Source of the DNA: a virus | Taxonomy: Duplodnaviria > Heunggongvirae > Uroviricota > Caudoviricetes | IMG/VR virus record: IMGVR_UViG_3300021256_000058 | Location: 117,823-181,822 of that record | DNA: 64,000 bases | Strand: one strand, 5' to 3' | Part shown: positions 1 to 64,000 of the stretch, in pieces | Position numbering within the stretch: the first letter of the stretch is position 1 | Layout: the number at the start of each line of letters is the position of its first letter | Notes under the pieces: generated by a model | Seen by the model: only the letters and a program-made list of their open reading frames with translations | Database searches by the model: none | Told to the model about the DNA's origin: nothing | Translations under genes and position numbers: made by a program

Positions 1-698
1 CTACCTTTAGCGTTGCTAGCCCAGACACTCCCGCAAATAATTTCTTAGATACTTCCGGTCGTAAAGTATTGGTAGTTAATTGTACTTCTAATAGCGAATA
101 TGAACCAAAAGATCAGTTTAAGATTACTTGGAAAGATAAAGTTACTGGCGATGATTCAACTGAGACTCAGGTTGGTGTTGTTCAACAAGTAACCGAGGCT
201 TCTACTATTACTGCGGGCGGGGCTGAAGGTGTTCCTAGCGAAGCTCGTGCTCTCTATGATCACACCTTTAGTGCAAGCATTGTTGCTACTAGAAATGGTG
301 ATGATAGTGCAGTTCCAGAAATTAAGACCTTCCGTGTAACCGCAGATCCAGAGCAGTATCCTCCTCAGTTAGCTTTGACTTCTGAGAATGTTACTTTGGA
401 GTCTAATACTGACGTTAAGACTGTTACTGTAAGTGTTACTAATATTGATAACATTAATAGTGATGGTTATACCTATCAGTGGTATAAAGACCTTGGTACT
501 ACTAATGCTCACGTTGTTGATGATGTTGATATTGCGCTCCCTGGTGAGACCAGTGCAACAATTCAGTTCAGTGAGACTAATACTAACATTGGCCAAGGCG
601 GTATCGGTAACTGGTACTTCTGTGCTGTTACTAACACTTTGAACGGTAAGAATAAGACCGTTTACTCTAATAGCGTATATCTCGGTAAGAGCTACTAA
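1..698 (+). CDS. Ig-like domain structural protein, 5' partial (open to the window edge)
   Basis: The frame is open from nt 3 with no stop. The C-terminal ...GNWYFCAVTNTLNG... segment resembles an Ig-fold strand pattern. It ends in TAA, and an RBS-bearing gene follows. Confidence 0.5.
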   Translation, partial: TFSVASPDTPANNFLDTSGRKVLVVNCTSNSEYEPKDQFKITWKDKVTGDDSTETQVGVVQQVTEASTITAGGAEGVPSEARALYDHTFSASIVATRNGDDSAVPEIKTFRVTADPEQYPPQLALTSENVTLESNTDVKTVTVSVTNIDNINSDGYTYQWYKDLGTTNAHVVDDVDIALPGETSATIQFSETNTNIGQGGIGNWYFCAVTNTLNGKNKTVYSNSVYLGKSY

Positions 699-722
699 TA
701 TTAATGAAAGGAGCAAAATATT

Positions 723-1379
723 ATGTCTTTATCAAGTAATGTTAGAGAATATAATGAGTTACTGTGGAAAATTCAAGACCAAAACAAACCTGTAACTGCC
801 ATTTTGCTCCCTAGCGATGAACTGTTGGGTGAAATTGACTTGGAGGGTCGTACTGCGATCCTCCCGGTCCTTGATCCCACTGACCCAACATTTTTAAGTG
901 TACAGCATGACCATTATGCGGAAACTGTTTACTTTAAATGTGCAAGATACTTTGATAATACTGACTTAGCTACTACTGTATGTATCATTCAGTATGTCAA
1001 TGCAAATGGGAAGCAAGGTATCTATCGGGTTCCTTTCTATGATGTAGTGACTTATAGGGATGAAAATATAATGCTCGTTCCTTGGTGTATTGATGGTCTT
1101 GTTACCGAAGCAATGGGCGAAATTCAATTTGCTATCAGATTTTATTTGATCGATCCGGAGAGTATTGCGGTACTCGCGGATGGAACTCATGATGTCGATA
1201 GAATGCGTTATTTGTACAATTTAAATACGCTCCCTCAGACTGCGAAGGTTAAATATGGTTTGGATGCGTTGAGTACAAATGAGGAAACAGATGTTCCGCC
1301 TTCTGTTGTTGAATATTTGCTGCAGAGAGTGCAGGATTTGGAAGACAATACAGATTTATGGTGGACTGATATGTTTTAA
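723..1379 (+). CDS. hypothetical protein of the structural module
   Basis: A 218-codon ORF preceded by the RBS aaaggagcaaaatatt. It contains no internal TAG and ends in TAA. Confidence 0.55.
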   Translation: MSLSSNVREYNELLWKIQDQNKPVTAILLPSDELLGEIDLEGRTAILPVLDPTDPTFLSVQHDHYAETVYFKCARYFDNTDLATTVCIIQYVNANGKQGIYRVPFYDVVTYRDENIMLVPWCIDGLVTEAMGEIQFAIRFYLIDPESIAVLADGTHDVDRMRYLYNLNTLPQTAKVKYGLDALSTNEETDVPPSVVEYLLQRVQDLEDNTDLWWTDMF

Positions 1380-1392
1380 TTAAGAGATTAAG

Positions 1393-1460
1393 GGGGATGC
1401 GTGAAGCTGGCTTTAATGCTGCCATTAGGCGGCGGTCCGCGCATCCCCATTTTCTTTTTA
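1393..1460 (+). terminator. stem-loop with 9-bp GC stem plus T-rich tail
   Basis: gggggatgcg...cgcatcccc forms a 9-bp stem around a roughly 38-nt loop, followed by attttcttttt. A second 6-bp hairpin gcgagc-gaa-gctcgc lies at about 1505-1520. Confidence 0.4.
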
Positions 1461-1590
1461 CCTTTTGGTATTATATTAAAATAAAAAATAAAAAATATAA
1501 GCGAGCGAGCGAAGCTCGCGAGAAAGGAGACCCACTCCGTGTCACTTTAGGTATGGTTGCCCTTGGATGGCAATCTAAATAACTAGGGGA

Positions 1591-2799
1591 TTGCCTCTTG
1601 CTCGGCAACGGCCGGGGGGGGTATCCGTTTCAAATGATGGAAAGATTGGCTAGTGTTATTATTTTGATGGCTCTGGATATTTATAGTTTGATAGTACAAT
1701 AACTAATGTCATTAGTTCTCTTAATGAAATTACTTTTAGTTTTTGGGCAAAACCTACAACTACTACAGGTATTTAGGGTATTTTTCTTATTCGCCAAGGT
1801 GCTTCCTCTCATTAGATAAACTTTACTAATACTGGTATTGTATATAGAGATGCGGCTCACTCATCTCAGACTACTATTGCTTACCCTGCGGCAGTACAAG
1901 ATATATGGACTCATTATCTTTTTAGTTATGCTCATGGTAATTGGATTGTTTATATAAATGCAGCTCTTATTACAAATTAGGGATATACTGGTACAACTCA
2001 TTTAAATGCTAATCTTAATGAAGTAAGAATAGGACGTGCGCAATCATCTTCAGGCAATATTTATTATACTGGATATATAAATGATTTTCGTATTTATAAC
2101 CATGCATTAGCTGCTGAAGAAGTCCGTTCAATAGTTGCTAATGGTTTAATGATTCATTATCCTCTTAATGGTATGCCAGGAGATAGTGACAATATTGAAT
2201 ACGATATTTCGGGTTATCATAATGATGCGGAAATTGTAGGTATTGGCAAACAAGGATTTATTAGTTCATTAGCTGCACCTAGATATGCACAATCTTATGC
2301 CGGGTTTAGTTTAACTAAATACATAAAAAATGCTGATGTAGCATATGACAGTGGAATATGGTCAATATCTTGTTGGGCTCGTAGTGCTGTGCAACCAAGT
2401 GCTTATGAATCTATTTTTTGTTTAGCGAAAGCTGATGGTGAAGATGCTAATAAAAAAGCTTGTATATGTTATTCACCAACAGCTAATACAATATGGTATG
2501 AACTTGAAAATAAGTCCGGTAATATAGCTGGTATATCATATACAAAATGGTATCATTTTGTAATGACTTGTGATGGGTCTACTGGTAAAGTTTATATTGA
2601 TAATGAATTAAAAGCTACTCAAACAGGAATTACAGTTAGAACAGGATGCCATAATTTAGGTATAGGCTGTAGAAGTGAAAATGACGCATTTACTACTGGC
2701 GTTAGACCATTTACTGCTGGCAATCTTTCCGATTTTAGATTTTATACAAAATGTTTAACGGCTGATGAAGTCAGCCAACTTTATAATATGGGTGTTTAA
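1591..2799 (+). CDS. tandem LamG/ConA-like jelly-roll domain protein; TAG read as sense
   Basis: One frame runs from the TAA at 1576 to the TAA at 2797-2799. Its only internal stops are TAG, for example at 1651, 1684 and 1774. It contains two LamG_3-type C-terminal signatures, FRIYNHALAAEEVRSI and FRFYTKCLTADEVSQLYNMGV. The start is uncertain; the TTG at 1591 has poor SD spacing. Confidence 0.5.
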
Positions 2800-5388: not shown

Positions 5389-7806
5389 ATGTCTTTATAG
5401 GTTTGGTTGCCTCTTAATGGAAATGCTAATAATTATGGGCTTATTAAAGGTTCTATTACAAATAATGGGGTTACTTTTTCTGGAGCTGGGAAAATAGGAG
5501 TAAATAGTGTATTTGCAAATAATAAAAATGTTGTAATTACTGGAATTAATATTACTAAAAATGAATGGACAGTTGCTATTTGGGCAAAACATAATAACGC
5601 TACTGCGACAGATCCTAATATGCTGTTTTCTTGTGGCACTAATGGTAATTATACGCATACTCAATTTGCTTTACATTTATAGTCAGACAGTAAACATTAT
5701 TATGGTGTTGTTAATACTAATGCTTATGCTTCTTTTATTCCCATAGACAATATTGCAGAATGGCATCATATTGTAATGAGTTATGATGGACAAACTCTTA
5801 AAGCTTATTTAAATGGTTAGCTAGTAAATACTATTAATGAAAATTTAACACTATTCCAAGGAAATAAAATCAGTATAGGATCTTATTATGCAAATAGTAC
5901 ATCTACTAATTGGCATGGCGGGCTATAGGATTTCCGTGTGTATGACCATGTTCTTACAGATTCTGAAATTTGGCATTTAGCTAACCCAGAAGTATATCAT
6001 TATCATATGAATGATATTAATAATGGTTATAAAAATTATATTTATAAAAAATTACCTGATGAGTACTAGGAAGTTAAATATATTGAATCAACTGGTACAT
6101 AGTATATTAATACTAATTATACAAATGATACAGCAACATCTATTAGAATGAAATATAGATTTTCTGCAACTGAAGTAGGCGCTAATAAAGTAATTGTTGG
6201 CTCTGAAACATCAGGGCATCAATATACTGGAGCATTAGTGCTTAATGGTAATTTATATAGTGGTACATCTATAAGTTATTTTAACACTGGTACATTAACA
6301 GTCAATACTGATTATATATATGATTATTATAGTAGTAATTCTGAAGCATATGTATATAAAAATGGAGTAAAATTTACTAAAACAAGTAATTTAGGGGTTA
6401 ATTGTACTTATGCACCTTGTATTTTTGCTCATAATGCTGGTGGCACAATTAATTAGTATTCTAAATGTAAATTATATTCTTTTTAGTTATATGTTAATAA
6501 TGTTTTATAGCGTAATATGCGTCCTTGCTATCGCAAATCTGATAATAAGCCTGGTATGTATGATTTAACTAATGGGGTATTCTATACTAATGCTGGTTCT
6601 GGAGAATTTATATATGGGCCTATTATAAAAGCTTTGCCAAAAGAATATGTGCCAGTTGAATATTTATAGAGTACTGGTACACAATACTTAGATATGAATA
6701 TGAAGCGTAATTCTGTTAATTTCAGAATTATTGTAGAACAAGAATTTCCAACTTCAACTGGAGAAAGAGATGTAGCTGGTTCATATTCTTCTGGAGCTGC
6801 AGCTGGGGCATTAGTATGCGGTTAGGCCTATGATCCAGCTAAATTATTTATATATAATAAAAGTTACACAAATGCTTAGATAGCTCAACCTATTTTTATG
6901 CAAAATGTGAAACAATAGGTTGAATATGGCACAACAGCTTCATAGCATTATATCCAAATTGGAACGACTAAAGACTTCAAGGCAACTACTAATTTGCCCG
7001 CATCAGATACTAATAATCTTTTTATATTCGCAGGAGGGCCTTCTAATTATTCCAATGCAATAAATGTAAAGATCTATTCATTAGATATAATAGAAGATAA
7101 TATTTTAAAAAGAGCATTACGTCCTTGTTTACGTATTTCTGATAAAAAACCTGGTATGTATGATCTTGCAAATGATATATTTTATATTAATCAAGGTTCT
7201 GGTGAATTCGTATATGGTTCTTAGAATGAATTAATAAAAAATAATAATGCATGGGGACAAAACTATCAAGGGATCTTAAATATAAAAACAGTATAGAATA
7301 ATAATACTCCGCGGTATAGCTCAAGTACCTTTATTGGCACCCCAGCTCGCAATCCGATGCTCACTTTTGGAGAAAGTAGTACTACTAAAAATGCATTAAC
7401 AGATTGTACTGTCAGTTTTTGGATAAAGAAAAAAGCTAATGAAGAAAATATGGTTTTAGGGTCTGGTCCTTATATAGGGGCTATTTCTGGGTCTAAGTTT
7501 TATACTTAGAATGCTGGCACTACTATACAATTATATAAAGATGGAATAGAATATCCTATAACTTCTACTGAATCTAATAACGTACTTTATTTTAACGGTG
7601 CGGCTACGCCAGACACTAATTGGCATCATTTTTGTTTAACTCATGTTAATTTTTCAGCATGGAGTTCAATTATCATGAATAATTATGGTTCTGGCTCAAC
7701 ATGGGATACAAATTCTGATATTTCAGATTTTCGTATTTTTGCAACGGTTCTAACCGCAGATGACATTCAAAAGCTCTATGCTATGGGTCATCCGCCAACA
7801 ACATAA
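5389..7806 (+). CDS. LamG-like receptor-binding/fibre protein, paralog of 2847..5309, with about 16 in-frame TAG
   Basis: An ATG follows the RBS gagaggtgg. The N-terminus is M S L TAG V W L P L N G, parallel to SLQIWLPLNG in the paralog. LamG signatures are FRVYDHVLTDSEIWHL and FRIFATVLTADDIQKLYAMG. The frame is broken only by TAG and ends in TAA at 7804-7806. Confidence 0.6.
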
Positions 7807-7993: not shown

Positions 7994-10900
7994 TTGGCAC
8001 TCTTCAAAATAAGTCAAGGTAATAGTAGCAACCTCCCTACAAATTATCATAATGGATATTGTTACTTTACTATTGATGAAGGTAAGTTATATATCGACTT
8101 TCCTGGCACAGGAGAAGATCAATAGGTAGTAGATGGCGAAACTTTAATACGCCGTCCATTGAATGCGAACCGTGCGGACTTCGTTGGATACGCTCTTACG
8201 CTCGAGTTTGATGGCGATGCACAGCCTAACTATAATGGTTCTACTCCTCGAACCTATAATATTACTCCAGAAGCAATTAGTGCGGTCCGCCGTAACGGAG
8301 ATACTATTCCAGGTCCATTAACTCTTAATGGCGTGTTCACAGTGAATAATGACGCATACATTGACAGTGCAACTGTAGGCGATTTACTTATCAATGGCGG
8401 GACACGTTTCATCGGAGACGTGAATGCAGGTAAGATTACCGCGTCTAGCTTTGTCGGTCCTCTTACCGGGAACGCCACAAGCGCAGATAAAGTAAACCAT
8501 TATATATCAATTCAAATTAATGGTACAGAAAAAGCTCATTATGATGGTTCGGCTAACCAATCGGTTAACCTGACCGCCGAATCCCTTGGTTTACTTGGAA
8601 ACACTACTAAGTATGCTCTTGGCGATGCAGTAGGCGGTAATGCGGTAGCCGCAAATAAATTAACTGTCAATGCAGGTTCTTTAACTCGTCCAGTTTACTT
8701 CTCTGCTGGTGTACCAGTAGCAATAAGTAATACTGATGAAATTGACTTAATTGCTAAACAAGCAAATAGTGTAAAGGAAAATCTTATTATAGAAGCCAGA
8801 GACACTGAGTTATGGCGTTATAATGGTAGTATTTCCCGCACACTAAATCTTACTCCAAGTTTAATTGGAGCTTTCGATATTATAGAAGGTTCTACTGTCC
8901 AAGGCGAATCTATTTTTAATAATGTAGTTTACTTAAATGATGAAACATATGCTGACTCAATGACTATTGAGAATGCAATCGTCACAGGCGCGCTTCGTGT
9001 AGTTGGTGACTTAAATGGTTCTGTTATTAATGCAACTACATTTAATGGAAATTTGAACGGAAATGCAACATCAGCCAACAAAGTAAATCATTGGTTGAAA
9101 ATCCAATTCGATGGTACAGATAAAGCTCAATATGATGGATCGGGAGATAACAAAACTGTTAATATCACCCCAGCTGCTATTGGAGCTTTGTCTACTACAA
9201 CCAAATATGCTGCTTCCGCATCTGTTGGTGGCTCAGCTCTTAGTGCGGAAAAGCTTAATGCTAATGCTGGCGATGCTACGCACCCAATATATTTCGCAAA
9301 TGGTGTCCCGGTTCAAGTCTCTGGAACCTAGGCTATTAACGTTTCATCTGCGGATAAAGTAAATCATTCTTTGCGAGTTGATTTAGACGGTACCACCGCA
9401 GTCACTTATGATGGTGATACTGAAAATAAAAGTGTAGATATTACCCCAGAAGCAATCAATGCTCTCCGCAATACTACGAAATATGCCGGGTCTAACTCGG
9501 TCGGTGGAGCAGCGATTAGCGCAAATAAATTAAATACAAATGCGGGCGATGCTACACATCCAGTTTACTTTGCTAATGGTGTTCCGGTCCAGGTTTCTGG
9601 TACTTAGGCAATTAATGTAGCAAGTGCTGATAAATTAAATCATTATGTAAGTATTTCAGCCGATGGAACTGAAAAAATCCATTTTGATGGATAGAATAAT
9701 GATTCATTTGATATAACCCCAGAAATAATCAATGCAGTAAGACGTAATGGTGATACGATCCCAGGTCCTCTTACTTTGAACGGGGTATTCACTGTAAATA
9801 ATGATGCTTACATTGATAGTGCTACCATCGGTGACCTCTTGGTTAATGGCGGCACTAGATTCGTGGACGATGTGAATGCAGGAAAAATTACTGCAAACAA
9901 TTTTGTTGGCCCATTAACAGGTAATGCTACAAGTGCGGATAAGGTAAATCATTACGTATCTATTCAAATCAACGGAACTGAAAAGGTTCATTATGATGGT
10001 TCCGCGAATCAGTCAGTGAATTTAACTCCTGAGTCTCTTGGTTTGTTAGGTGCTACAACAAAATATGCACTTGGTGATGCTGTTGGTGGCAATGCGGTCA
10101 AGGCTAACGCGCTGAACGTGTCAGCGGCAATTGGTTCTACGACCCGCCCCGTATACATCCCATCATCTGGCGTTCCCGCAGTAATCAGCAATACCGCTGA
10201 AATTGATTTAATCGCTAAGAAGGCTAATAGCCTTAAAGAGAGTTATATCTATTCATTACGTGGCACTGAACAGTGGCGTTATGATGGTTCTACTCAGCGC
10301 ACTTTGGATATTACTCCAAATGACATGGGTATCTTCGATACACTCGAAGGATCTACTGTTCAAGGCGAATCTGTTTTCAATAACGTCGTATATTTGAACG
10401 ATGAAACTTATGCAGATTCAATGACTATTGAAAATGCTATTGTAACAGGGGCCCTACGTGTTGTAGGCGATCTTAATGGTAGCGTAATTAATGCGACTAC
10501 TTTTAACGGTAGTTTGAATGGCAATGCGACTAGTGCAAATAAAGTTAATCAAACTCTTACTATTGAATTAAATGGTACAGCGCAGCCATCATATGATGGT
10601 AGTATTGCCAGACGTATTGAAATTACTCCTGCTTCAATCGGCGCTTTGGCAAGTACCGCAAACTATGCAGGTAGCTCTTCAACAGGAGGACCTGCAACAA
10701 GCGCCCAAAAGCTGAACACTAATGCAGGTTCAGATATTTTGCCTGTCTACTTTACTGGCGGTGTACCCGCAGCAGTAAGTACATCAAAACAAATAAACAT
10801 TCTTGCTCGTGAGGCAAGTAAAACAACTTATAATTTAGCCATCGCTTTTGATGGCACTAATGCTGTCACTTTTGATGGTAGCACTCAAAATAAATCAATT

Positions 10901-25240: not shown

Positions 25241-25541
25241 TTTTCATATCCTCCCAATAAGCAACAGATTTTCCTGCTGCTTGAGCATATTCTATCTCGC
25301 TTTTGGTTGATGAACCAATATATCTTGTTTCATCTGTTATTACAACAACCGTATCAGCGAGATCAATTTTTTGTTTATGAAGCGCATCAAGTCTTTCCTT
25401 ATCTTCTGCGCTCATGTCAACATGATCTGTGTGATGGAAAACATGCGGCATTAGGATAATAGCTCCCTGCATTGTAAGTTTTTCTGCGGCCTCCATAAAC
25501 AGATCTTTGTAACGGGTACTCCCGCACAAGCAAACTATCAT
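25230..25541 (-). CDS. hypothetical protein
   Basis: An intact 103-aa ORF ending in TGA. Confidence 0.5.
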   Translation of the reverse strand: MIVCLCGSTRYKDLFMEAAEKLTMQGAIILMPHVFHHTDHVDMSAEDKERLDALHKQKIDLADTVVVITDETRYIGSSTKSEIEYAQAAGKSVAYWEDMKNEI

Positions 25542-36128: not shown

Positions 36129-36184
36129 TAGTACCTATTCTACTGGGCTAAGCCCTGGCACCATTGGTGCTATCAATTCATATC

Positions 36185-37494: not shown

Positions 37495-37639
37495 AATTAA
37501 TCTCCTATATAATTACTTGTATCAATATCTACAACAATTTTATCGCAATATTTATCAAATTCTTCTTGAGTAGGTCTATCCATTATCCAACGATTTTGAA
37601 ATTGAATAAAATCCTCTTCACTCTAAAAGCCAGTTCCCA

Positions 37640-39833: not shown

Positions 39834-39856
39834 ATTATCATTCCTTTCTATATAAT

Positions 39857-39885
39857 ATTATACCATATTTTTAGAAAAAAATCAA
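39857..39885 (-). promoter_or_regulatory. sigma70-type promoter TTGATT-N17-TGgTATAAT (extended -10)
   Basis: + strand tattataccat ... aaaaaatcaa with an exact 17-nt spacer. Confidence 0.65.
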
Positions 39886-39926
39886 CCCAAGGTGGAATTC
39901 ACCCTGGGTTGAGTTTTAGTTCTATT

Positions 39927-40910: not shown

Positions 40911-40951
40911 ATTATTTAATTCCTTTCACAACTAATTTTTCCAAGACTGGA

Positions 40952-42650: not shown

Positions 42651-42663
42651 AATTTCTCCCTTA

Positions 42664-44301: not shown

Positions 44302-44330
44302 ATTATACTACTTTTTTTTAAAAAAGTCAA
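44302..44330 (-). promoter_or_regulatory. sigma70-type promoter TTGACT-N17-TATAAT
   Basis: + strand attata 44302-07 and agtcaa 44325-30, with a 17-nt spacer. Confidence 0.6.
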
Positions 44331-46318: not shown

Positions 46319-46349
46319 ATAATAAAAATCATCCTTTATTATTTTATTA

Positions 46350-46378
46350 TATTATAACATAAATTTTAAAAATTGTCA
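46350..46378 (-). promoter_or_regulatory. consensus sigma70 promoter TTGACA-N17-TATAAT
   Basis: - strand ttgacaatttttaaaatttatgttataat upstream of ligA. Confidence 0.7.
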
Positions 46379-46379
46379 A

Positions 46380-47219
46380 TTAAAGATTTTGTGTTTTCTG
46401 TTTAAGCTCAGCAATATCTTTCTCAATCTGAGTTAAACGGTCAGTTAAATTATATTGTGGGATGCTAGGATTTGAAGAAGTATTTTTAACATATAGATTT
46501 CCATCTATTAAATAATCACCTTTAAGGTTATCTCCTCCATTATTAGATACATACCCAAGATTTGTTTTTACGCCACTAATACTTGTGGCACCAGTACCTC
46601 CACGAGCAAGAGGAATAGCTGCACTTAGATTGTCTCCTATACCTAAAGCATTACTTAACGCAGGCAAAGAAGTAACTCCAGTACCTCCTCTAGTGACAGG
46701 AATGGCGTCAAAAGTTGCGTTAGCCCCAGATACACTAGCATTTCCTAGCCCAAGCAGATTAGTTAAAGCATTTAATGTTGTTACACCAGTGCCACCAAAA
46801 GCAACAGGAACTGTGCCGAATGACGGCTCTTGATTAGCAGAATTAACTTGTAATACTCCAGTGCCAGAAGTACCAATCATTTTAACTTGGCCAGTACCGT
46901 TACCCGCAAGTAAAGCATTATTGTCTAAACTTTGGCGACCAGTGCCGCCAGCCGCTACTCCGATCGCTTCACCAGAACCTCCAGCTAAAAGCAAACCTTT
47001 TAATTCAGGAATAGATGTAACTCCAGTTCCACCTTGTTCTGGAGCTAGTGGAGCTGTTGTAGAATCTCCTAACCCTAAACTGGCACGTAATGCATTTAAA
47101 TTAGTTACACCAGTACCACCATTATCAGTTTTTAATACTTGAGTACTAGTATCAAATGCAGACTATACTACATTTAATAAAGTATTAATGGTAGCAGTTG
47201 CAAAATTTAATTTACCCAT
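46380..47219 (-). CDS. phage tail-fibre repeat (Phage_fiber_2-like GGTGxTxLxALxxLGLG) protein with TAG at codon 19
   Basis: An ATG at 47217-19 follows the RBS aaggag. The GGTGVTNLNALRASLGLG-type repeat occurs 7 times, on both sides of the TAG at 47163-65. There is a C-terminal coiled coil. The track ORF starts artificially at an internal TTG. Confidence 0.55.
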
Positions 47220-47315
47220 ATATATCTCCTTCCTCTCAAATAAACAAATAAGGGGAAGATAATTCTTCCCCAATATTATAGATTATTATATTAATAAGAT
47301 TAATTAATTTTGCCC

Positions 47316-49691: not shown

Positions 49692-50280
49692 CTACCTCCT
49701 TAGACGTCATCTTACCAGTAGCAAGTGAGTCAGCCAACTCATTCCATTGGTGTCCTTGATGACCTTTAATCTTCTGCAAATTTATTCTTTTTCCTTGATT
49801 ATATAATTTATAATATTCTTGAATTAAATCTAAATTCTCAGGTGTTTTATTATCAGATTTAAGCCATCCTTTATCTGCCCAAGTAAACATCCAATTATTA
49901 AATGTATTTACACAATAAGCAGAATCGCTATATACTGTTGGAATAAAGAAATTATCTTTATCTACTCCAAATTGTATAAAAGCCCAAAGAATAGCTTTTA
50001 ATTCTTCTCTATTATTTGTTGTATTTTCACTTGATTTATTATATGATACCATAACTTTTTGGTCTTTGTCAAGTACAATCACCCCAAAGCCACCTGTATT
50101 AGTATCTTTTCCATTTCCTAAGCAACTACCATCTGTATAGATGGTAGTTACATTATCAGGAATTAAACCAAGAGAGCAGAGCATATCAGTCCCGTCTGAA
50201 GAAATAATTATATTAGACATCAATATTTGCCCTCCATGCGTTATCTTCAATGAACTGTTTACGAGGACCGACTGACTCAC
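49666..50280 (-). CDS. rnhA: RNase HI
   Basis: Contains IYTDGSCLGNG, ...NNREELKAILWA and ...SDSAYCVNTF...IKGHQGHQWNELAD. The likely start is the internal Met near 50220, because the track start overlaps the upstream gene by 68 nt. Confidence 0.75.
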   Translation of the reverse strand: MSQSVLVNSSLKITHGGQILMSNIIISSDGTDMLCSLGLIPDNVTTIYTDGSCLGNGKDTNTGGFGVIVLDKDQKVMVSYNKSSENTTNNREELKAILWAFIQFGVDKDNFFIPTVYSDSAYCVNTFNNWMFTWADKGWLKSDNKTPENLDLIQEYYKLYNQGKRINLQKIKGHQGHQWNELADSLATGKMTSKEVVEKYGRNS

Positions 50281-52123
50281 CCATTAAACTCATAAACGTT
50301 TTTGCAACTTCTTCTGCATCATCCATTGTAATACGCTTTAAAGTACGAGTTTCTGGGTTCATAACTGTCTCTGCCATTTCTGCGGGATCCATTTCGCCAA
50401 GACCTTTCATGCGGCCCAGCTCAAATGATCTCCCAACTGTTTTACGAAACTGTTCCAAAGCTGCATCATCTTTGATATACTGAAATTTAGTCCCCATTGT
50501 AGCCTTGTAGAGAGGTGGAACTGCCGCATAGATATAGCCTTTTTCCAAAAGCTCAGGAGCGAACTTCCAGATGAAAGTAAGGAACAGTATGCGGATATGG
50601 CTTCCATCTACATCAGCATCGGCTGTAATGACTATCTTTCCATAACGAAGTTTAGATTCGTCTACAATGACTTTGCCATCTTTAACCTCCAAACCAAAAG
50701 CCTTAATCATACCATCAATTTCTTGATTTCCAAGAGCTTTGTGGAGATCAGCTTTAATTGTATTTAAAATTTTTCCTCGAACAGGAAATACCGCCTGAGT
50801 ATTGCGGTTGCGGGCCTCTTTAGTCGAGCCTGCAGCAGATTTACCTTCTACTATAAAGACCTCACACTCAGAACGATTTTTTGAACTGGCATCTGCGAGC
50901 GTACCAGGCAGGACCGCACGCGCTTTCGCATCGGCTTTCCGCACTGTTTCTTTAGCCTTTTTAGCTTTTTCTCTTGCAGTTCGCGCTAAAAGTGCTTTAT
51001 CAACAATAGCTTTTGCGTCTTTTGGATGATTATTCAGCCAAATACTTAATTCTGTTGATACCAAACGCTGCACAACTGTTCTGGCTTCACTTGAAGAAAG
51101 GACTTCTTTTGTTTGACCACTAAAGACTGGGTCTGGCATAATAAATGAAAGGACAAGAGACAGTCCTTCCTTCAGTTCATCGCCCAGGATATTTGCATCT
51201 TTTTCTTTCAATAAGTTGTTCGCTCTCGCATATTCATTAATTGACATGGTTAGAGCCGTTCTAAAACCAGTAAGATGCGTTCCTCCAGTATTTGGTATGC
51301 TATTGGTATACAGCTTATAAGTATCTGAATAGGTATCATTATACTGCATAGCCAGTTTAACACTAATTCTATCTTCGGTATTTTCACAAAAAAACACTGA
51401 AGTTAAAGGCTTTTTAGATTTATTTAAATCTTCGATATAATCCAAAATGCCATTTTTAGAAACAATAGTTTCTTGCTCTTTATTCTTATATTTAAGAGTA
51501 AATGTAAGACCCGGAGAAAGGTAAGCCAATTCTTGAATTTGCTTTTTTAAGGACTCATAATCTAATTCAATACCCTCTTTAAAGATCTCTTCATCAGGGG
51601 TAAATGAAATCTCAGTTCCAGTTTCTTTTCCGGTATATTTATTAACAATAAAATTAACTCTTTTACCTTTTTTAAATTCCATTGTGGCAATTTTACCATC
51701 ACGAATGGAAGTTACAGTAAAAGTTTTAGAAAGTGCATTTGTAGCTTTTGCACCAACGCCATTCATACCACCAGAAGTATTATATCCTGTTTTACCAGAA
51801 CTATCAAACTTTGCACCAGTATGAAGCTTTGTAAAAATATTCTCAAGAGTTTCAGATCCATCTTTTGCGGGACCAAACGGGACACCGCGTCCATTATCAG
51901 AAATGCAAACTGAATCATTATCTTCCACTCTTATTTTACATTCTGTGCAATAACCATTAAGATATTCGTCAACTGCGTTTGAAATAATCTCAAGAGTGAT
52001 ATGTTTTACGCCATCCGGCCCGACTGACCCGATATACATACCAGGACGCAGCCTGATCGCTTCAATACCTTCAAGTGTTTTTATGTCTTTAACGCCATAA
52101 TTAACCTTTACAGGCACTATCAT
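50213..52123 (-). CDS. type II DNA topoisomerase B subunit (GyrB/ParE-like)
   Basis: 636 aa with the GHKL ATPase motif EIISNAVDE, the EGKSAAGS motif and the TOPRIM motif PVRGKILN. Confidence 0.85.
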   Translation of the reverse strand: MIVPVKVNYGVKDIKTLEGIEAIRLRPGMYIGSVGPDGVKHITLEIISNAVDEYLNGYCTECKIRVEDNDSVCISDNGRGVPFGPAKDGSETLENIFTKLHTGAKFDSSGKTGYNTSGGMNGVGAKATNALSKTFTVTSIRDGKIATMEFKKGKRVNFIVNKYTGKETGTEISFTPDEEIFKEGIELDYESLKKQIQELAYLSPGLTFTLKYKNKEQETIVSKNGILDYIEDLNKSKKPLTSVFFCENTEDRISVKLAMQYNDTYSDTYKLYTNSIPNTGGTHLTGFRTALTMSINEYARANNLLKEKDANILGDELKEGLSLVLSFIMPDPVFSGQTKEVLSSSEARTVVQRLVSTELSIWLNNHPKDAKAIVDKALLARTAREKAKKAKETVRKADAKARAVLPGTLADASSKNRSECEVFIVEGKSAAGSTKEARNRNTQAVFPVRGKILNTIKADLHKALGNQEIDGMIKAFGLEVKDGKVIVDESKLRYGKIVITADADVDGSHIRILFLTFIWKFAPELLEKGYIYAAVPPLYKATMGTKFQYIKDDAALEQFRKTVGRSFELGRMKGLGEMDPAEMAETVMNPETRTLKRITMDDAEEVAKTFMSLMGESVGPRKQFIEDNAWRANIDV

Positions 52124-52240: not shown

Positions 52241-52558
52241 TTATCCGACTGGCGTATCGTCATAAGTTTCAACGCCACGAATCATTTTTTCATAATTAAT
52301 ACCATCTTTGGTATTCTCTTTCTCTGACTTTTTATAGAAAAAAGCCTAACTTACGCCATATGCTCCCCATGGCATTGACACCATGGCAGTTAGCCAGGGC
52401 AGTTCACCGAAATACTACTTGACAATACAATAAAATGCGAGTATAATAAAAGATAGAGTTGTAATCCAAATTAAAATTGATTCTTGTACAAGAAGTTTTT
52501 TGGAGAACTCAAGAGGTTTCTTTTTCTTTGTCTCTTGGGTTTTTTCTTCTTCAGACAT
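52241..52558 (-). CDS. holin-like 2-TM membrane protein with 2 in-frame TAG
   Basis: The ATG is embedded in the endolysin 3' end as gATGtcTGA. The product has the TM helices ILIWITTLSFIILAFYCIV and LPWLTAMVSMPWGAYGV. It is 105 codons, ends in TAA and was missed by the ORF track. Confidence 0.45.
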
Positions 52559-53861
52559 CGAGAGTGTAGGTTAAGTCAATCCAACCTTCACGGTCGGCCA
52601 ACTTACCATATACTCCTTCTTGTTTAGTGATTACAACTTCTTCACCCTGATGCACTAAACCAAGAACTTCAGAATGCTTATTTGACTCGGCACGAATGTT
52701 CAAAGATTGCGCGGTAATACGCACTTTCTGCCCAGCTGCTACTGATGGTTTTGCCGTGCCTACTCCCCAGCGTGGTACACCATAGCCAGCAATTGAACTA
52801 TAACCAATAGGATAAGTGCGTCTTGCTACTTGGTCAGAAGAGTTGCCTTCAATAGTAACTACAGTAGTTGGGGTGACAGATTCTACGATACCAGTATGGT
52901 TAATACCACCACTGTAATAGAAGAAAATTTGAGAACCAACAGCAGGAGTATTACTCCATTGGCCTGCTGCTTTATAATAATCTGCGGAATAAGAACAAGC
53001 TGCTCCGCAATCACCAGTTTGGCAGATTAGGCGTTCTGCTTTTGCGCGATCGCGTCCGCATAGCACCCAATAGCACCAGTCCGCAAAAACATCGCACCAG
53101 GCATAGCCGTTTTTGTTCCCGTTATAATAACCCGCATTAGCTAAATCACGGGCATATTTTGTCCAGTTATTACCGCCCGCGTTTGCAGTTTTATCATCAA
53201 GCTAAGAATTGCTATTTTTCTCCCGATAGCCAATTTCCGCAGCTGCAATCTTAACTAAATTTTGCGGGGTAATATCTCCACTAACCACAGGAGTTGTGTC
53301 ATCTTTTGGTGTAACATCTGTGGTCGAATCGTCATGCTTATTTTCCTGTGCCTCTTGGATTAATTGTAAATATTTTGGATGAACGTTACCAGTTACCAAT
53401 CCAGTTTTCATAGTAGAAATTGTAACGCTACTACTGTTATTAATATTACGAACATATAAGTTCATTTTAAATAACCAACTTGGAATCTTTTGACCGGTAG
53501 TATATGTTGCACCATCTTTAAGTTTTACAATATCTCCGACAGAGAAATTCTTTACTTGTACTTGGTCATCATCTACAATGACCACGGTTGTCTTAGGATA
53601 GCTTGGATTGGTTACAGTATCTCCAAGAGCTTCATAGAGAGCTGTCCAGCTTTGTGGGCCAAATTCTCCATCTGGATCTAAGGAGTGCTCGGTCTAGAAC
53701 TTTATAACTGCGGCTAGGGTATTTGCCCCAAAATCGCCATCAGCGCCATCTGGGCCAAGGTCGTAACCTAATTCAATCAATTTAGTTTGCATATTTTGAG
53801 TATTAGAGCGATCTCTATTATTCAAACGCAATATAACTGATGGAACCGTTCTTACTGCCAT
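52551..53861 (-). CDS. endolysin: PG_binding_1 + CHAP amidase/peptidase + SH3b, with 2 in-frame TAG
   Basis: An ATG follows the RBS aaaggag. PG_binding_1 reads LGYDLGPDGADGDFGANTLAAVIKF-TAG-TEHSLDPDGEFGPQSW, with the TAG at the conserved FQ position. CHAP reads NGYAWCDVF...NHTGIVESV...EGNSS. The C-terminal SH3b reads KVRITAQSLNIRAE...WIDLTY. The track pieces 52551..53066 and 53202..53585 share a frame. Confidence 0.7.
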
Positions 53862-53884
53862 ATTTATACTCCTTTCTTAATATA

Positions 53885-53915
53885 AAAAAGTAAGGTAGAA
53901 ATAAATTCTACCTTA
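53885..53915 (-). terminator. hairpin overlapping the phoH-like stop
   Basis: aaggtagaa-ataaatt-ctacctt. Confidence 0.5.
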
Positions 53916-55193
53916 CATCTGTTCTGCTATTGCTGCTATTCTGCTTCGATGAATCTTAGTAAGTGTTATTTCACCATAAATATCATGGCCTCTAAATACC
54001 TTTGATGCTCGACGCATACCGTTATTTATTCCAGCAAATGCGATATCATCTACCTAGGCTTTTTCGTCACCATCTATGATACAAATACTATCTTCACCAA
54101 TACGTTGTAATGCTAATTTCATCATCGCAATATCGAGGTTTTGAGCTTCTGAAATATAAATACCAGCTTTCATACCGGTAGTATCATAACCTCTAATATC
54201 AGATAATGGAAGTAGAAGTAATTTTTCTTCATCAATTAATTTTTCTACTTCAATTCTGCTGCCGATTTTACTAATAAGTAAATTACCTATCTAAGAATCA
54301 AGAAGTTTCTCTTCTCTTGTACCGGGCAGATAGCCCAATTTGGCAGCGCCTTTGACCGCAACCGTATTGCAAAATACAATTATCTTTTCAATTTTATGTT
54401 TCTCTAATAAGCTAAATAAATAGCCAAGAGAAAGAATGGTTTTACCAGTGCCCGCAGGACCTTTAATCATAGTAATTTTATTATGAACAAGACTATCTGC
54501 AACAAATTGCTGGTGAATATCACCTGGCATTGGTTTAACTGTTCCGAAATGATCGGATGTAAAAGATGTAAAATTAACTTGTCGCCATCCATCGACTGTG
54601 CGAACTAGTCTGTCTACTGGCTCGCCTTCTGGATTACGTAAGATAAGGTATTGATTTATTAAGCAGTCTATGTCGAATTTATGTGAATAGAAATCTGCCA
54701 TAGTTTGCTCATTGGGGCAAGTAAAATCCATTATACCCGTATATTCATCATCTTCTGGTTCTACTGATTCAAGCATTCCGTCGCCAAAGAAAATGTTAGC
54801 TATTTCAAATAAGCAAGCATCATTGGTTACAAAAATTACTTCATCAGTTCGGACATTATTATTATAATCTATCGCAGTTGCTAATATTTTTGTATCATTA
54901 TTTACAGAAAAATTCTTTTCTAAAATAGGAGCAAGCATATCTTCTGTAAAGATATGAACGTGATATTTACCTCTATTTTTTACTAATAAATTGGTTAAAA
55001 TTCTGGCTTTATATTTGGTATCATCATCTTTATTAGCATTAGTTTTGATAGATTCTAATTCTTGTAAAGTGATAGAAGAAATTACGAACTCTTCGTCAGT
55101 CTTAAAAAGAGTAGGAATTTTTAAGAGTAAAGAGCAAGTATCATAAAATCTTATATCAGTCATCATCGTCTTCTTCCTCCTCATAATATTCAT
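53913..55193 (-). CDS. PIN + PhoH-like ATPase (PhoH2/YlaK-type) with 2 in-frame TAG
   Basis: Walker A GPAGTGKT. The sequence continues across the TAG at 54291 into ..VDEAQN-type DIAMMKLALQRIGEDSICIIDGDEKA-TAG-VDDIAF.., and it ends in TAA. Confidence 0.65.
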
Positions 55194-62124: not shown

Positions 62125-62320
62125 CAATAGCGTCTTGACCATCGAGTGGGCCGCCGATTAATTTCTTTGGTTTACTCTTCTCAAGACATTCGTCACAAAG
62201 GACGCCAGGTTCCCAATCTGATTTTCTGCGAACTGGGAACTATTTCCCGCATTTACTGCAAGTTATCATAGGGGTATTGTCCGGAACAATTTTAATTCTT
62301 CCATTTTCCTATATAACCAT
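62111..62320 (-). CDS. zinc-ribbon protein of 69 aa with 2 in-frame TAG, missed by the ORF track
   Basis: The RBS ggaggt is 7 nt upstream. The product is M V I -TAG- ENGRIKIVPDNTPMITCSKCGK -TAG- FPVRRKSDWEPGVLCDECLEK... and ends in TAA. Confidence 0.4.
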
Positions 62321-62332
62321 ACTCTACCTCCA

Positions 62333-63163
62333 TTAAGTATTATGGAGATAGAACTGCGGCCCTTTTACGAGCCACCAGTCGAGCTCACCAGTTTCATCAT
62401 AATGAGCCCACCGGTCCGCAATAACCTCAAGTTCTTCCATGTCTTTAAAGTACATTTCAGCATGAGGAGCCTCAATTCTATCCGCATGGAAGTGACCAAA
62501 ACACCAGACTTTAAACTTAATTTCATCTTTCAATCGGTCCATCCATGTTTCCATTGAATTATCTACTGTCTTTTGGTCAATTGCCCCAAGGAACATATCA
62601 GTAGGTTCCCAAGAGAGGGGGCAAGTATGACTCAAGACAAAATCAAAATGAGCATTATGATTATATACAAATAAATGTTCAGCTTTTGTCATTTCTTCAA
62701 AACTAAGCTGTTCATCTGCCCACCAACCAGTTTTCTTTGGATTATTATTTAACTCATTCATATTGGCTCGTTGGAGTCGCCACCATTTGTCAACAGAATA
62801 AGCCCCGCCAATAACTGCGCACTTAAATCCATTGATCCAATAGACACCATAATCTTCAAAATAACGAATATGCGGATACTCGTGTTCTAGCCATACATGA
62901 CCGCCAACATTCGCGTCCCAGATCTGGACCATGTCAGAAAGAGATTGCGGTCTTGCTTCATGATTGCCACGAACTACATAAATATAGTATCCTTTGGCAT
63001 CAACTTCTTTTTTAACTCTTATGTCAGTCTTATTAAGGTAGAAATTAAATCCAGCATCTCCCAGAATAATTATTCCTGTATCTTCTGGGGTATATTTATC
63101 AAGGCGCTCATTACACAGCCAAGTGAATTCACCATGACAATCGCCACGTATTAGAAATTTCAT
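62333..63163 (-). CDS. lambda-phosphatase-like metallophosphoesterase
   Basis: Contains GDCHG, ILGDAG and VRGNHEARP motifs. It is 276 aa. Confidence 0.65.
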   Translation of the reverse strand: MKFLIRGDCHGEFTWLCNERLDKYTPEDTGIIILGDAGFNFYLNKTDIRVKKEVDAKGYYIYVVRGNHEARPQSLSDMVQIWDANVGGHVWLEHEYPHIRYFEDYGVYWINGFKCAVIGGAYSVDKWWRLQRANMNELNNNPKKTGWWADEQLSFEEMTKAEHLFVYNHNAHFDFVLSHTCPLSWEPTDMFLGAIDQKTVDNSMETWMDRLKDEIKFKVWCFGHFHADRIEAPHAEMYFKDMEELEVIADRWAHYDETGELDWWLVKGPQFYLHNT

Positions 63164-63187
63164 TTAATTTTACGCCCCTTTCTGAAT

Positions 63188-63529
63188 TTATTTATTATAC
63201 CATAAGACATATTTTGCATTTTCTGGTTTATTTTTTATAAGCCAATCTTTATTACAATGGACTGACCCAAGTTTATTACCATTGGCATCACTCCAGTAGC
63301 CAGAGCCGTCATAATCAATAAAACCGCCATCGGCAACAATCTCTATAAAATCTTGAATAGAATAACAGTCGCCATAGCCAATTTTAGAAATAATGGCTAA
63401 AATTTCAGCACATTCTTCAATATCGGCTTGAACTGCCGCACTATTTAAAGAATTTCTTTTAAATTTACCTATACGACTAGCATAGCGTTTTAAAATCCAT
63501 TCAAAATCTTCTTTTATAAATAGTGACAT
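63188..63529 (-). CDS. hypothetical protein
   Basis: An intact 113-aa ORF ending in TAA. Confidence 0.45.
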   Translation of the reverse strand: MSLFIKEDFEWILKRYASRIGKFKRNSLNSAAVQADIEECAEILAIISKIGYGDCYSIQDFIEIVADGGFIDYDGSGYWSDANGNKLGSVHCNKDWLIKNKPENAKYVLWYNK

Positions 63530-64000
63530 TATTTTAGATCCTCTCGCACAGATTTTTTCATCATAGATAACTGTACTTCGTCTAAAAGAGCATCAACTTC
63601 AGCATTTTTTTCTTTAGAGCAAGTCTCTAAGAATTTATCACATATTTCATCAATATGGATAAGTGCCATAGCTGCTGCTTGTCTCGCATATGCAAGATCA
63701 TACTTGCCTAACTTTACATCTAATAAATACTCAGGGTTAGAAGGATGCAGGCATGATTCATATGATTCGCCTGCTATGTATCTTTCAATATAATCTTCAA
63801 CCCTTAAAAGATGATGGAGTTGTTTAGGATCATATCCATATTTAGCGAGAATATCTTCTTTGCCCTCAAAATGATGCTCTAACGCAGCATATTTTGTATG
63901 AGCAATACCACGCATAGAGTTCATAGCTTGCGGGAGATGATAACGAGCAATTTTTTCTCTATTATCAATTAATTTTTGCCAATCTTCCGCATAGGTTGGG
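63529..64000 (-). CDS. hypothetical protein, 5' end beyond the window
   Basis: The frame stays open upstream of the track ATG at 63924, reading ...PTYAEDWQKLIDNREKIARYHLPQAMNSMRG... It ends in TAA at 63529. Confidence 0.4.
   Translation of the reverse strand, partial: PTYAEDWQKLIDNREKIARYHLPQAMNSMRGIAHTKYAALEHHFEGKEDILAKYGYDPKQLHHLLRVEDYIERYIAGESYESCLHPSNPEYLLDVKLGKYDLAYARQAAAMALIHIDEICDKFLETCSKEKNAEVDALLDEVQLSMMKKSVREDLK

What the first reader, a model, noticed from the sequence alone, without database searches (positions are those of the whole stretch)
1..64000. Amber (TAG) is a sense codon here, and it divides the element into TAG-free early genes and TAG-rich late genes
Between 1591 and 18883 the + strand carries about 17 kb of coding frame. 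It is broken about 60 times, always by TAG and never by TAA or TGA, and the frame is kept across every break. Examples are 8159..9331 to 9371..9607 to 9776..11203, all in one frame. Every gene that reads through TAG still ends in TAA or TGA. The - strand enzymes are the opposite: polymerase (1,286 aa), NrdD (758 aa), both topoisomerase subunits, ligA and the helicases have zero TAG and end in TAA or TGA. This matches the known phage strategy of gating late genes by amber-suppressor-dependent translation. The unusual point here is how cleanly the two classes separate, and how many TAG-gated genes sit inside the early strand. A suppressor tRNA(CUA), or release factor manipulation, must be encoded elsewhere. 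I found no tRNA in this window.
Basis: partly seen in the sequence, partly recalled or inferred. Interest (0 to 1): 0.9.

Follow-up and report, generated by a model that had tools for sequence, protein, structure and literature searches.

The report
Amber-recoded rumen phage, TAG means glutamine
This is part of a roughly 180-kb sheep-rumen phage that reads the stop codon TAG as glutamine, using its own suppressor tRNA, and puts TAG almost only in tail-fibre, lysis and a few nuclease genes; it is a clean example of a strategy already described for gut phages.

Summary
Five consecutive + strand genes (1539-18883) carry 66 in-frame TAG and no in-frame TAA or TGA. Sixteen - strand genes also carry TAG. 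All 65 genes end in TAA (48) or TGA (17), never TAG.

TAG encodes glutamine. In the RuvC-like gene, 5 of 6 TAGs fall on columns that are Gln in 68-72 of 72 homologues. An endolysin TAG aligns with the conserved Gln of solved peptidoglycan-binding domains. Related phages mostly have CAA at these sites.

The predicted suppressor exists. A tRNA(CUA) lies about 14.4 kb beyond the window's right end, in a 33-tRNA array, seen in near-identical assemblies of the same phage. It most resembles the phage's own tRNA-Gln(CUG).

[quoted passage not shown] It follows gene function, not strand, and it is not absolute: RecJ has one TAG and YorH ends TAG-TAA. Related phages carry TAG in the polymerase, NrdD and RecJ.

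This pattern and the code-switch timing model are published (Borges et al.; phAss-1, the nearest named relative). The timing role here is inferred, not shown. Verdict: a new member of a known kind, of modest interest.

The parts
1539..2799 (+). LamG (Laminin_G_3) fibre-like gene A. It starts at GTG 1539 ('MSLxVWLPLDG'), shifts frame at the poly-G tract, then continues in the frame of 1579-2799. There are 2 TAG in the leader (1548, 1584) and 5 in the main frame.
1614..1621 (+). Poly-G tract. It is G8 here, G9 or G10 in other assemblies; only G10 keeps gene A in frame.
   Evidence: L025 gene call of 464 aa
2847..5309 (+). LamG fibre-like gene B, TTG start, 12 in-frame TAG, ends in TAA.
5389..7806 (+). 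LamG fibre-like gene C, 805 aa, 17 in-frame TAG, no CAG, ends in TAA.
7994..15484 (+). Giant repeat-containing fibre-like protein (about 2,496 aa, five repeat units of 1.0-1.45 kb), 18 in-frame TAG.
15557..18883 (+). DUF285-containing 1,108-aa protein, 14 in-frame TAG.
20355..20858 (-). RuvC-like resolvase, 167 aa, 6 TAG. Five of them fall on near-invariant Gln columns.
42661..43653 (-). Protein with a transmembrane segment, a coiled coil and a GIY-YIG nuclease domain, 330 aa, 11 TAG.
52241..55166 (-). Lysis cassette embedded in the replication strand: holin-like membrane protein (52241-52558, 2 TAG), PG_binding_1+CHAP endolysin (52551-53861, 2 TAG) and PIN+PhoH protein (53913-55166, 2 TAG).
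25538..34027 (-). TAG-free block: NrdG, NrdD, guanylate kinase, DnaE/YorL-type polymerase (1,286 aa) and AAA_30/UvrD_C helicase.
34449..36188 (-). RecJ/YorK-like exonuclease, an exception with one TAG at codon 18. The same site is TAG in 7 related loci and CAA or CAG in 3.
36185..41902 (-). SPbeta-like replication genes, TAG-free except two short genes. Contains a 366-aa protein, DnaB/YorI, YorH (its last sense codon is TAG, directly followed by TAA), AAA_24 and YorF. A 47-aa ORF (37497-37640) also has one TAG.
44327..52123 (-). LigA, GyrA/ParC-like subunit, RNase H and GyrB-like subunit, all TAG-free. They are interrupted by a 279-aa fibre-like repeat protein (46380-47219) with one TAG.

Best explanation
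What it is. The window is 64 kb of an uncultivated tailed phage of about 180 kb from sheep rumen (ENA scaffold_114, 172,581 bp). The phage uses genetic code 15.

Shown. TAG is decoded as glutamine. TAG is never used as a terminator. The phage carries one canonical tRNA with a CUA anticodon. This tRNA sits in a 33-tRNA array at the upstream end of the strand that carries the replication genes, about 14.4 kb past the window's right end. It looks like a G36-to-A derivative of the phage's own tRNA-Gln(CUG). TAG supplies about a third of the Gln-type codons in the fibre and lysis genes and in a few nucleases (RuvC-like, GIY-YIG, PhoH-like). In those genes it largely takes the place of CAG. It is essentially absent from the SPbeta-like replication and nucleotide-metabolism genes.

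Inferred. On entering a standard-code host, probably a Clostridia-class bacterium, the TAG-free genes can be translated at once. TAG-containing genes are truncated by host RF1 until the suppressor tRNA has accumulated and been charged by host enzymes. Fibres, holin, endolysin and the DNA-cutting enzymes therefore appear late. This would hold even where those genes sit inside the replication-strand gene block, as the lysis cassette does. This is the code-switch model of Borges et al.
For: Reading through TAG gives whole proteins.
- 66 in-frame TAG and no TAA or TGA lie in five + strand genes.
- Complete Pfam domains span TAGs.

TAG is Gln.
- In the RuvC-like gene, TAGs at codons 8, 65, 116, 121 and 134 fall on columns that are Q in 68-72 of 72 homologues.
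- The endolysin TAG at codon 56 aligns with the Q of 'KFQ' in phiKZ gp144 (3bkh) and in 4nso.
- Against related phages, with TAG scored as a neutral X, 51 of 107 aligned codons are CAA or CAG and 10 are TAG.
- Paralogous fibre N-termini read MSLQIW (CAA) and MSLxVW (TAG).

TAG is not a stop.
- Stop codons are TAA 48, TGA 17 and TAG 0.

The partition.
- TAG:CAA:CAG is 70:105:17 in structural and lysis genes and 2:118:117 in replication genes; Fisher p = 8e-26.

The suppressor.
- tRNA(CUA) lies at L034:4730-4805, in a contig 99.6% identical to the window's contig over 10.9 kb.
- It scores 48 bits against Rfam tRNA, where the gathering score is 29.
- Its closest match is the phage's tRNA-Gln(CUG), 54 of 75 bases.
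- Similar CUA tRNAs in other phage contigs keep the cloverleaf through changes on both sides in 10 of 18 pairs.
- The array holds 33 tRNAs.

Precedent.
- Borges et al. (10.1101/2021.08.26.457843).
- phAss-1, the nearest named relative, with TAG as Gln and three tRNA-Sup-CTA genes (PMC10607447).
- Proteomic proof of code 15 in crAss-like phages (PMC9523058).
Against: - There are no expression, timing or proteomic data for this phage, so 'early' and 'late' are assigned from function only.
- The host and its genetic code are unknown. The only hint is a 3-kb contig binned with a Eubacteriales metagenome-assembled genome.
- RecJ has a conserved TAG. Related phages carry TAG in NrdD (9 of 19), the polymerase (8 of 25), DnaB (6 of 17) and RecJ (14 of 20). 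In that clade the suppressor must therefore act early, or gating is not the main selective force.
- Late genes have lower G3 overall (0.094 against 0.159), so part of the CAG depletion is general codon bias.
- The suppressor has a U1.U72 mismatch and an extra base in the 3' strand of the T stem, and its charging was not tested.
- No RF2, RF1 antagonist or GlnRS was seen in the roughly 100 kb examined. About 80 kb of the genome was not seen.
Confidence: 0.8

Rival explanations
1. TAG is Gln throughout infection, and there is no temporal switch. Either the host supplies suppression or the phage tRNA is present from the start. The uneven TAG distribution would reflect different mutational or codon-usage histories of the gene modules, such as AT-richer, fast-evolving, frequently exchanged fibre genes, and not regulation.
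For: - Related phages have TAG in the polymerase, NrdD, DnaB and RecJ.
- RecJ here has a conserved TAG.
- The late genes have generally lower GC3 and G3.
- The suppressor sits with the whole tRNA array upstream of the replication genes on the same strand, so it may be transcribed very early.
Against: - The bias is extreme: 0 TAG among 345 Gln-type codons in 44 genes against 101 of 311 in 21 genes.
- TAG runs against the G3-avoiding trend of the late genes.
- CAG is depleted about 6-fold, against 1.6-fold for AAG and 2.4-fold for GAG.
- The TAG-bearing genes inside the replication strand include the lysis cassette and DNA-cutting enzymes, classes that are plausibly harmful if made early.
- Borges et al. 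report the same convergence in unrelated clades.
Confidence: 0.17
2. The TAGs are genuine stops. The + strand block would then be a field of decayed or fragmented genes, or an assembly artefact.
For: Under the standard code the block breaks into dozens of short ORFs. One gene is indeed frame-shifted at a homopolymer.
Against: - No TAA or TGA occurs in about 5,640 in-frame codons where about 350 are expected.
- Domains are complete across TAGs.
- TAG positions align with conserved Gln.
- Independent assemblies from several samples give the same sequence.
- A suppressor tRNA is present.
Confidence: 0.01
3. TAG encodes pyrrolysine or some other amino acid. ARAGORN labels the CUA tRNA 'Pyl'.
For: The ARAGORN label. 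Pyrrolysine-using microbes exist in the rumen (general knowledge).
Against: - TAG columns are near-invariant Gln in homologues.
- The tRNA resembles tRNA-Gln(CUG) in its acceptor stem, D arm, anticodon arm and G73.
- No pyl genes appear in the roughly 100 kb of Pfam-annotated genes.
- ARAGORN gives this label to any CUA anticodon, including the phAss-1 suppressors.
Confidence: 0.01

Closest known systems
Alternatively coded (code 15, TAG to Gln) gut phages described by Borges et al. (bioRxiv 10.1101/2021.08.26.457843; later Nature Microbiology 2022); earlier Ivanova et al. 2014 (from my own knowledge)
   Same: - In-frame TAG is concentrated in structural and lysis genes.
- Replication genes are in standard code.
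- The genome carries a suppressor tRNA(CUA).
- Only part of the genes are recoded (here 21 of 65, or 32%; their clades range from 26% to 71%).
- Recoded modules are scattered among standard-code genes, as in their large Jade, Sapphire and Agate phages.
- A heavily recoded nuclease recalls their recoded intron endonuclease.
   Different: - Assignment to one of their named clades was not tested.
- No RF2 or aminoacyl-tRNA synthetase was seen in the part examined.
- The source is sheep rumen.
- The replication module is of the SPbeta Yor type.
Phage phAss-1 / proposed Phassvirus, NCBI 'Caudoviricetes code 15 clade' (Babkin et al. 2023, PMC10607447; OQ749652)
   Same: - It is the best named hit for the DnaE-type polymerase.
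- TAG is read as Gln in virion genes and in several DNA-processing genes.
- It has a large tRNA set (36, against 33 here) that includes CUA suppressors.
- A + strand structural block faces a long - strand replication block.
- No dedicated synthetase was found.
   Different: - The polymerase is only 38.8% identical, and there is no nucleotide-level match.
- phAss-1 has three suppressors, two of them next to nrdD, whereas here there is one canonical suppressor in the distal array.
- The genomes are 136 kb and about 180 kb.
- phAss-1 comes from human gut, this phage from rumen.
TAG-recoded crAss-like phages with proteomic validation (Peters et al. 2022, PMC9523058)
   Same: The reassignment is the same (TAG to Gln), and late genes are recoded.
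   Different: The lineage is unrelated. Here the gene set is DnaE/YorL polymerase, SPbeta-like Yor genes, topoisomerase II, LigA and a CHAP endolysin, which suggests a Gram-positive host. There is no proteomic evidence for this phage.
SPbeta-like phages of Bacillus (replication module yorF-yorL)
   Same: Pfam families YorF and YorH, a DnaB-like YorI, a RecJ-like YorK and a DnaE-like YorL lie in one block. The polymerase is 38% identical to SPbeta YorL.
   Different: To my knowledge SPbeta uses the standard code. Nothing else was compared.

Membership tests
Code-15 (TAG to Gln) alternatively coded phage | Many in-frame TAG in conserved protein-coding genes, with no in-frame TAA or TGA | tested here: met
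   101 TAG in 21 of 65 genes and no in-frame TAA or TGA. Pfam domains are complete across TAGs.
Code-15 (TAG to Gln) alternatively coded phage | TAG positions correspond to glutamine in homologues | tested here: met
   Five RuvC TAGs fall on columns that are Q in 68-72 of 72 homologues. The endolysin TAG aligns with Q of solved PG-binding domains. Of 107 aligned codons in related phages, 51 are CAA or CAG and 10 are TAG.
Code-15 (TAG to Gln) alternatively coded phage | TAG is not used as a terminator | tested here: met
   Of 65 stops, 48 are TAA, 17 are TGA and none is TAG. The 27 further genes in L034 also end only in TAA or TGA.
Code-15 (TAG to Gln) alternatively coded phage | Phage-encoded suppressor tRNA with a CUA anticodon (common in this group but not universal) | tested here: met
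   It lies at L034:4730-4805, the same as L168:13300-13370, in contigs 99.6% identical to the window's contig. It scores 48 bits against Rfam tRNA. It was not read directly on scaffold_114 itself.
Code-15 (TAG to Gln) alternatively coded phage | Structural and lysis genes recoded in preference to replication genes | tested here: met
   TAG makes up 36% against 1% of Gln-type codons; Fisher p = 8e-26.
Code-15 (TAG to Gln) alternatively coded phage | The host uses the standard code, so a code switch occurs during infection | not testable with these tools
   The host is unknown. The only hint is a 3-kb contig in a Eubacteriales metagenome-assembled genome.
Code-15 (TAG to Gln) alternatively coded phage | Peptide evidence for Gln at TAG positions | not testable with these tools
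   This needs metaproteomics, as was done for crAss-like phages (PMC9523058).
Phassvirus (phAss-1 genus) | Genus-level nucleotide similarity and shared synteny with phAss-1 | tested here: not met
   A 20-kb query gave no megablast match in the phage collection. The polymerase is 38.8% identical. The broad layout is similar.
Pyrrolysine decoding system | A tRNA-Pyl together with pylS and pylBCD genes; TAG at sites that are not Gln | tested here: not met
   The tRNA is Gln-like. No pyl Pfam families appear in the annotated genes. The TAG columns are Gln.
Named clades of Borges et al. (Jade, Sapphire, Agate, Garnet, Amethyst, Topaz, Lak, crAss) | Phylogenetic placement with the clade's reference genomes, for example on the large terminase | not tested

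The most novel reading that the evidence does not exclude
Directly after the suppressor lies a second Gln-type tRNA (L034:4806-4957) whose anticodon loop is split by an insertion of about 77 nt. Depending on where the insertion is cut out, the mature loop would read CUCUAAA (anticodon CUA, a second suppressor) or CUCUGAA (anticodon CUG). With the insertion removed, its anticodon arm is nearly identical to that of phAss-1 suppressor 1. If removal of the insertion is regulated, or depends on the phage, it would be an extra, RNA-processing-based timer for the code switch. A poly-G on/off switch in a TAG-rich fibre gene would add a further layer. Neither is established. The insertion is too short for a group I intron, matches no Rfam family and shows no significant folding signal.
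Probability: 0.07. Interest if true: 0.65.

Novelty: new member of a known kind. Interest (0 to 1): 0.3.

Why it matters
- Annotation. The standard code shatters about 17 kb of fibre genes, the endolysin, the holin-like gene, the RuvC-like gene and others into fragments. Code 15 restores them.
- A clean test case. The lysis cassette and two nucleases sit inside an otherwise TAG-free replication-strand block, and the single canonical suppressor sits in a distal tRNA array. This makes the phage a convenient system for testing the published 'code switch times late genes' model, if a host can be found.
- A caveat for that model. In related phages the replication genes do carry TAG, so the clean separation is a lineage-specific state and not a rule.
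- Overall it adds a rumen lineage with an SPbeta-like replication module to the known recoded phages. It does not change the picture.

Tried and rejected
- A megablast of 20 kb against 50,697 phage records gave no match.
- ARAGORN and Rfam found no RNA genes in the window or in the two 10-kb extensions of its own contig.
- The regions around the polymerase in 22 IMG/VR relatives hold no tRNAs.
- More distant relatives reached through P0061, P0119 and P0082 have the marker gene in other contexts, and no CUA tRNA lies within 10 kb.
It therefore cannot say whether the relatives carry a suppressor.
Walking along the contig only worked through cluster-member ids. About 80 kb of the genome, presumably the head, tail and terminase genes, was never seen, so RF2, GlnRS or further suppressors cannot be excluded.
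- The pyrrolysine reading was rejected.
- The pseudogene or artefact reading was rejected.
- Tandem Repeats Finder found nothing in the giant gene because the repeat units exceed its 500-bp period limit. The repeat finder shows them.
- Folding the 77-nt tRNA insertion gives a cloverleaf-like shape, but the z-score is -0.1, so no claim is made.
- I considered whether CAG depletion in late genes is specific replacement by TAG. It is only partly so, because G-ending codons are generally rarer in those genes.


Full report
ORIGIN OF THE WINDOW

The window is identical to part of ENA contig ERZ28612970 SHIW14-1_SAMN02144230-S004 scaffold_114. That contig is 172,581 bp, and the window corresponds to about 89,966-153,965. 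The sample names point to sheep rumen; that reading is mine, from the 'SHIW14' naming. Near-identical contigs of 180.5-180.7 kb occur in sister samples and in other assemblies. The G+C content is 36%. No phage record in the INPHARED copy matches at nucleotide level.

CHECK OF THE OBSERVATION

With TAA and TGA as the only stops, the + strand from 1579 to 18883 resolves into five back-to-back reading frames. They hold 5, 12, 17, 18 and 15 in-frame TAG and no internal TAA or TGA, and each ends in TAA. The other frames of the same stretch carry TAA or TGA at about 6% of codons, so chance is excluded.

Each gene has a ribosome-binding site and a plausible start: GTG 1539, TTG 2847, ATG 5389, TTG 7994 and ATG 15557.

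The window has no tRNA.

Using the gene calls stored with the public contigs, which already use code 15, I tabulated 65 genes:
- 21 genes contain 101 TAG in total, and 44 contain none.
- Stop codons are TAA 48, TGA 17 and TAG 0.

WHAT THE GENES ARE

The + strand genes:
- Three are Laminin_G_3 (concanavalin-like) fibre-type proteins. They match virion-protein PHROGs, and the Pfam profile is covered end to end across TAGs.
- One is a protein of about 2,496 aa built of five repeat units of 1.0-1.45 kb.
- One is a 1,108-aa DUF285 protein.

The - strand carries an SPbeta-like replication module: YorF, YorH, DnaB/YorI, RecJ/YorK and DnaE/YorL. It also carries NrdD and NrdG, guanylate kinase, dUTPase, LigA, both type II topoisomerase subunits, RNase H, an RNA ligase and others.

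Embedded in that strand are TAG-bearing genes:
- a RuvC-like resolvase (6 TAG in 167 codons);
- a membrane-anchored coiled-coil GIY-YIG nuclease (11 TAG);
- a holin-like membrane protein, a PG_binding_1+CHAP endolysin and a PIN+PhoH protein (2 TAG each);
- a fibre-like repeat protein (1 TAG) and several small ORFs.

WHICH AMINO ACID

- RuvC-like gene. In an alignment with 72 homologues, the TAGs at codons 8, 65, 116, 121 and 134 fall on columns that are Q in 71, 72, 72, 68 and 70 sequences. The sixth TAG falls on a variable column.
- Circularity check. Some database homologues might themselves be TAG translated as Q. I therefore mapped codons directly in IMG/VR relatives, scoring the window's TAG as a neutral X. 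Of 107 aligned codons, 47 are CAA, 4 are CAG and 10 are TAG. For RuvC alone, an earlier pass gave 41 CAA and 3 CAG.
- Endolysin. The TAG at codon 56 aligns with the Q of 'KFQ' in the solved PG-binding domain of phiKZ gp144 (3bkh) and with a Q in 4nso.
- Paralogues. The fibre N-termini read MSLQIWLPLNG (CAA) and MSLxVWLPLNG (TAG).

TAG is therefore glutamine. Pyrrolysine, which is ARAGORN's automatic label for any CUA anticodon, is rejected.

THE SUPPRESSOR

I walked outward from the window through exact-protein look-ups and reached the contig end. In scaffold_46 (180,532 bp) the first 15 kb hold 33 tRNA genes, all on the strand of the replication genes. This contig is 99.6% identical to the window's contig over a 10.9-kb overlap.

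One of the tRNAs has a CUA anticodon, at L034:4730-4805. This corresponds to about 78.4 kb on the window's coordinate scale, which is 14.4 kb beyond the window's right end. What is known about it:
- It scores 48 bits on the Rfam tRNA model, where the gathering score is 29. It has U1.U72, G73 and an encoded CCA.
- It is closest to the phage's own tRNA-Gln(CUG), 54 of 75 bases. The two share the acceptor stem, the D arm and the anticodon arm apart from position 36.
- Similar CUA tRNAs are common in large IMG/VR phage contigs. Across them the cloverleaf is kept through changes on both sides in 10 of 18 pairs.

No release factor or aminoacyl-tRNA synthetase appears among the Pfam-annotated genes of the roughly 100 kb I could see. 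About 80 kb of the genome remains unseen.

THE PARTITION

| Gene class | TAG | CAA | CAG |
|---|---|---|---|
| Structural and lysis genes | 70 | 105 | 17 |
| Replication and nucleotide-metabolism genes | 2 | 118 | 117 |

Fisher p is 8e-26 for TAG and 9e-12 for CAG against CAA. TAG therefore largely stands where CAG would be. Late genes also have generally lower G3, so the CAG loss is only partly specific: CAG/CAA falls about 6-fold, against 1.6-fold for AAG/AAA and 2.4-fold for GAG/GAA.

The split is by gene, not by strand:
- Four + strand genes are TAG-free, and 16 - strand genes carry TAG.
- RecJ has a TAG at codon 18 that is itself TAG in 7 related loci.
- YorH ends TAG-TAA.
- Upstream of the window, the radical-SAM and YcaO genes carry 2 and 4 TAG.

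In related phages (polymerase 41-70% identical), in-frame TAG occurs in NrdD (9 of 19), the polymerase (8 of 25), DnaB (6 of 17) and RecJ (14 of 20). Six relatives have none in about 5,000 aligned codons. The TAG-free replication module is thus a state of this lineage. This matches the statement of Borges et al. that recoding of replication genes is variable.

MECHANISM

Shown: the recoding, the Gln identity, the absence of TAG terminators, the presence and Gln-like nature of the suppressor, and the functional bias.

Inferred: host RF1 truncates TAG-containing products until the phage tRNA accumulates and is charged by host enzymes. This would delay fibres, lysis proteins and DNA-cutting enzymes even where they are co-oriented with replication genes.

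The main rival keeps the recoding but denies the timer. It draws on the TAGs in the relatives' replication genes and on the general codon bias of late genes. I give it about 0.17.

COMPARISON WITH WHAT IS KNOWN

Borges et al. (10.1101/2021.08.26.457843) describe the following:
- TAG- or TGA-recoded phages of human and animal guts with suppressor tRNAs;
- preferential recoding of structural and lysis genes, with variably recoded replication genes;
- 26-71% of genes recoded;
- recoded modules scattered through large genomes;
- the code-switch model itself.

The nearest named relative by polymerase is phAss-1 (38.8% identity), filed by NCBI under 'Caudoviricetes code 15 clade'. It has 41 TAG-containing ORFs, three tRNA-Sup-CTA genes and 36 tRNAs (PMC10607447). 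The phage here is far outside that genus.

Peters et al. (PMC9523058) verified code 15 by proteomics in crAss-like phages.

VERDICT

It is a new member of a known kind, and the claimed unusualness is not borne out.

SIDE OBSERVATIONS

A length-variable poly-G tract in a fibre gene, an insertion-split Gln-type tRNA next to the suppressor and a YcaO/radical-SAM cluster are recorded separately as items noticed in passing.

Noticed in passing
window 1614-1621 (inside fibre gene A, 1539-2799): A poly-G tract is G8 in the window and L023, G9 in L026, and G10 in L025 and L027. Only G10 joins the GTG-1539 leader ('MSLxVWLPLDG...') to the LamG reading frame. With G8 the gene is out of frame. This could be slipped-strand on/off switching of a tail fibre, or a homopolymer assembly error.
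   Followed up: partly
L034:4806-4957 (directly 3' of the suppressor tRNA; also in L035-L038 and L143): A second Gln-type tRNA (U1, G73, encoded CCA, good acceptor, D and T arms) has an insertion of about 77 nt in its anticodon loop. Depending on the junction, removing it would give anticodon CUA or CUG. ARAGORN misses it. Rfam tRNA gives 33 bits for a truncated match, there is no group I intron hit, and the insertion has no significant fold (z = -0.1). It was seen only in identical copies, so there is no comparative evidence.
   Followed up: partly
L028:1-8016 = L034:10001-18052 (9-20 kb past the window's right end): A cluster of a PrtC-like protein, a radical-SAM protein, a glycosyltransferase and a YcaO protein lies inside the phage, with a Ser/Gly/Asn-rich 269-aa protein next to it. 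It looks like peptide-modification (RiPP-type) chemistry. The radical-SAM and YcaO genes carry 2 and 4 TAG. Related phages carry similar clusters (L045, L046).
   Followed up: no
window 39162-39170: The last sense codon of the YorH-like gene is TAG, directly followed by TAA. This is the only place where TAG sits at a gene end, so it would behave as a stop with a back-up in either code.
   Followed up: no
window 7994-15484: The giant fibre-like gene is built of five diverged repeat units of 1.0-1.45 kb (68-75% identical at DNA level). The same 'GGTGVT' style of repeat recurs in the - strand 279-aa protein at 46380-47219.
   Followed up: partly
window 22628-23878, 58076-58555, 58672-59565: Several genes are unusual for a phage: a xanthine/uracil permease family transporter (416 aa), a NADAR domain protein and a Band_7 (stomatin-like) protein. 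All three are TAG-free.
   Followed up: no
L001-L022 and L044 (relatives from IMG/VR and ENA): The recoding state varies within the clade. Some relatives have up to 26 in-frame TAG in the replication region, including the polymerase and NrdD. Six have none in about 5,000 aligned codons.
   Followed up: partly
L168:1-15154 (start of the 180.5-kb scaffold_46): A 33-tRNA array is interspersed with small ORFs, a Peptidase_C1-like gene, a LysM gene and an nSTAND3/AAA gene. The gene stock is comparable to the 36 tRNAs of phAss-1.
   Followed up: partly
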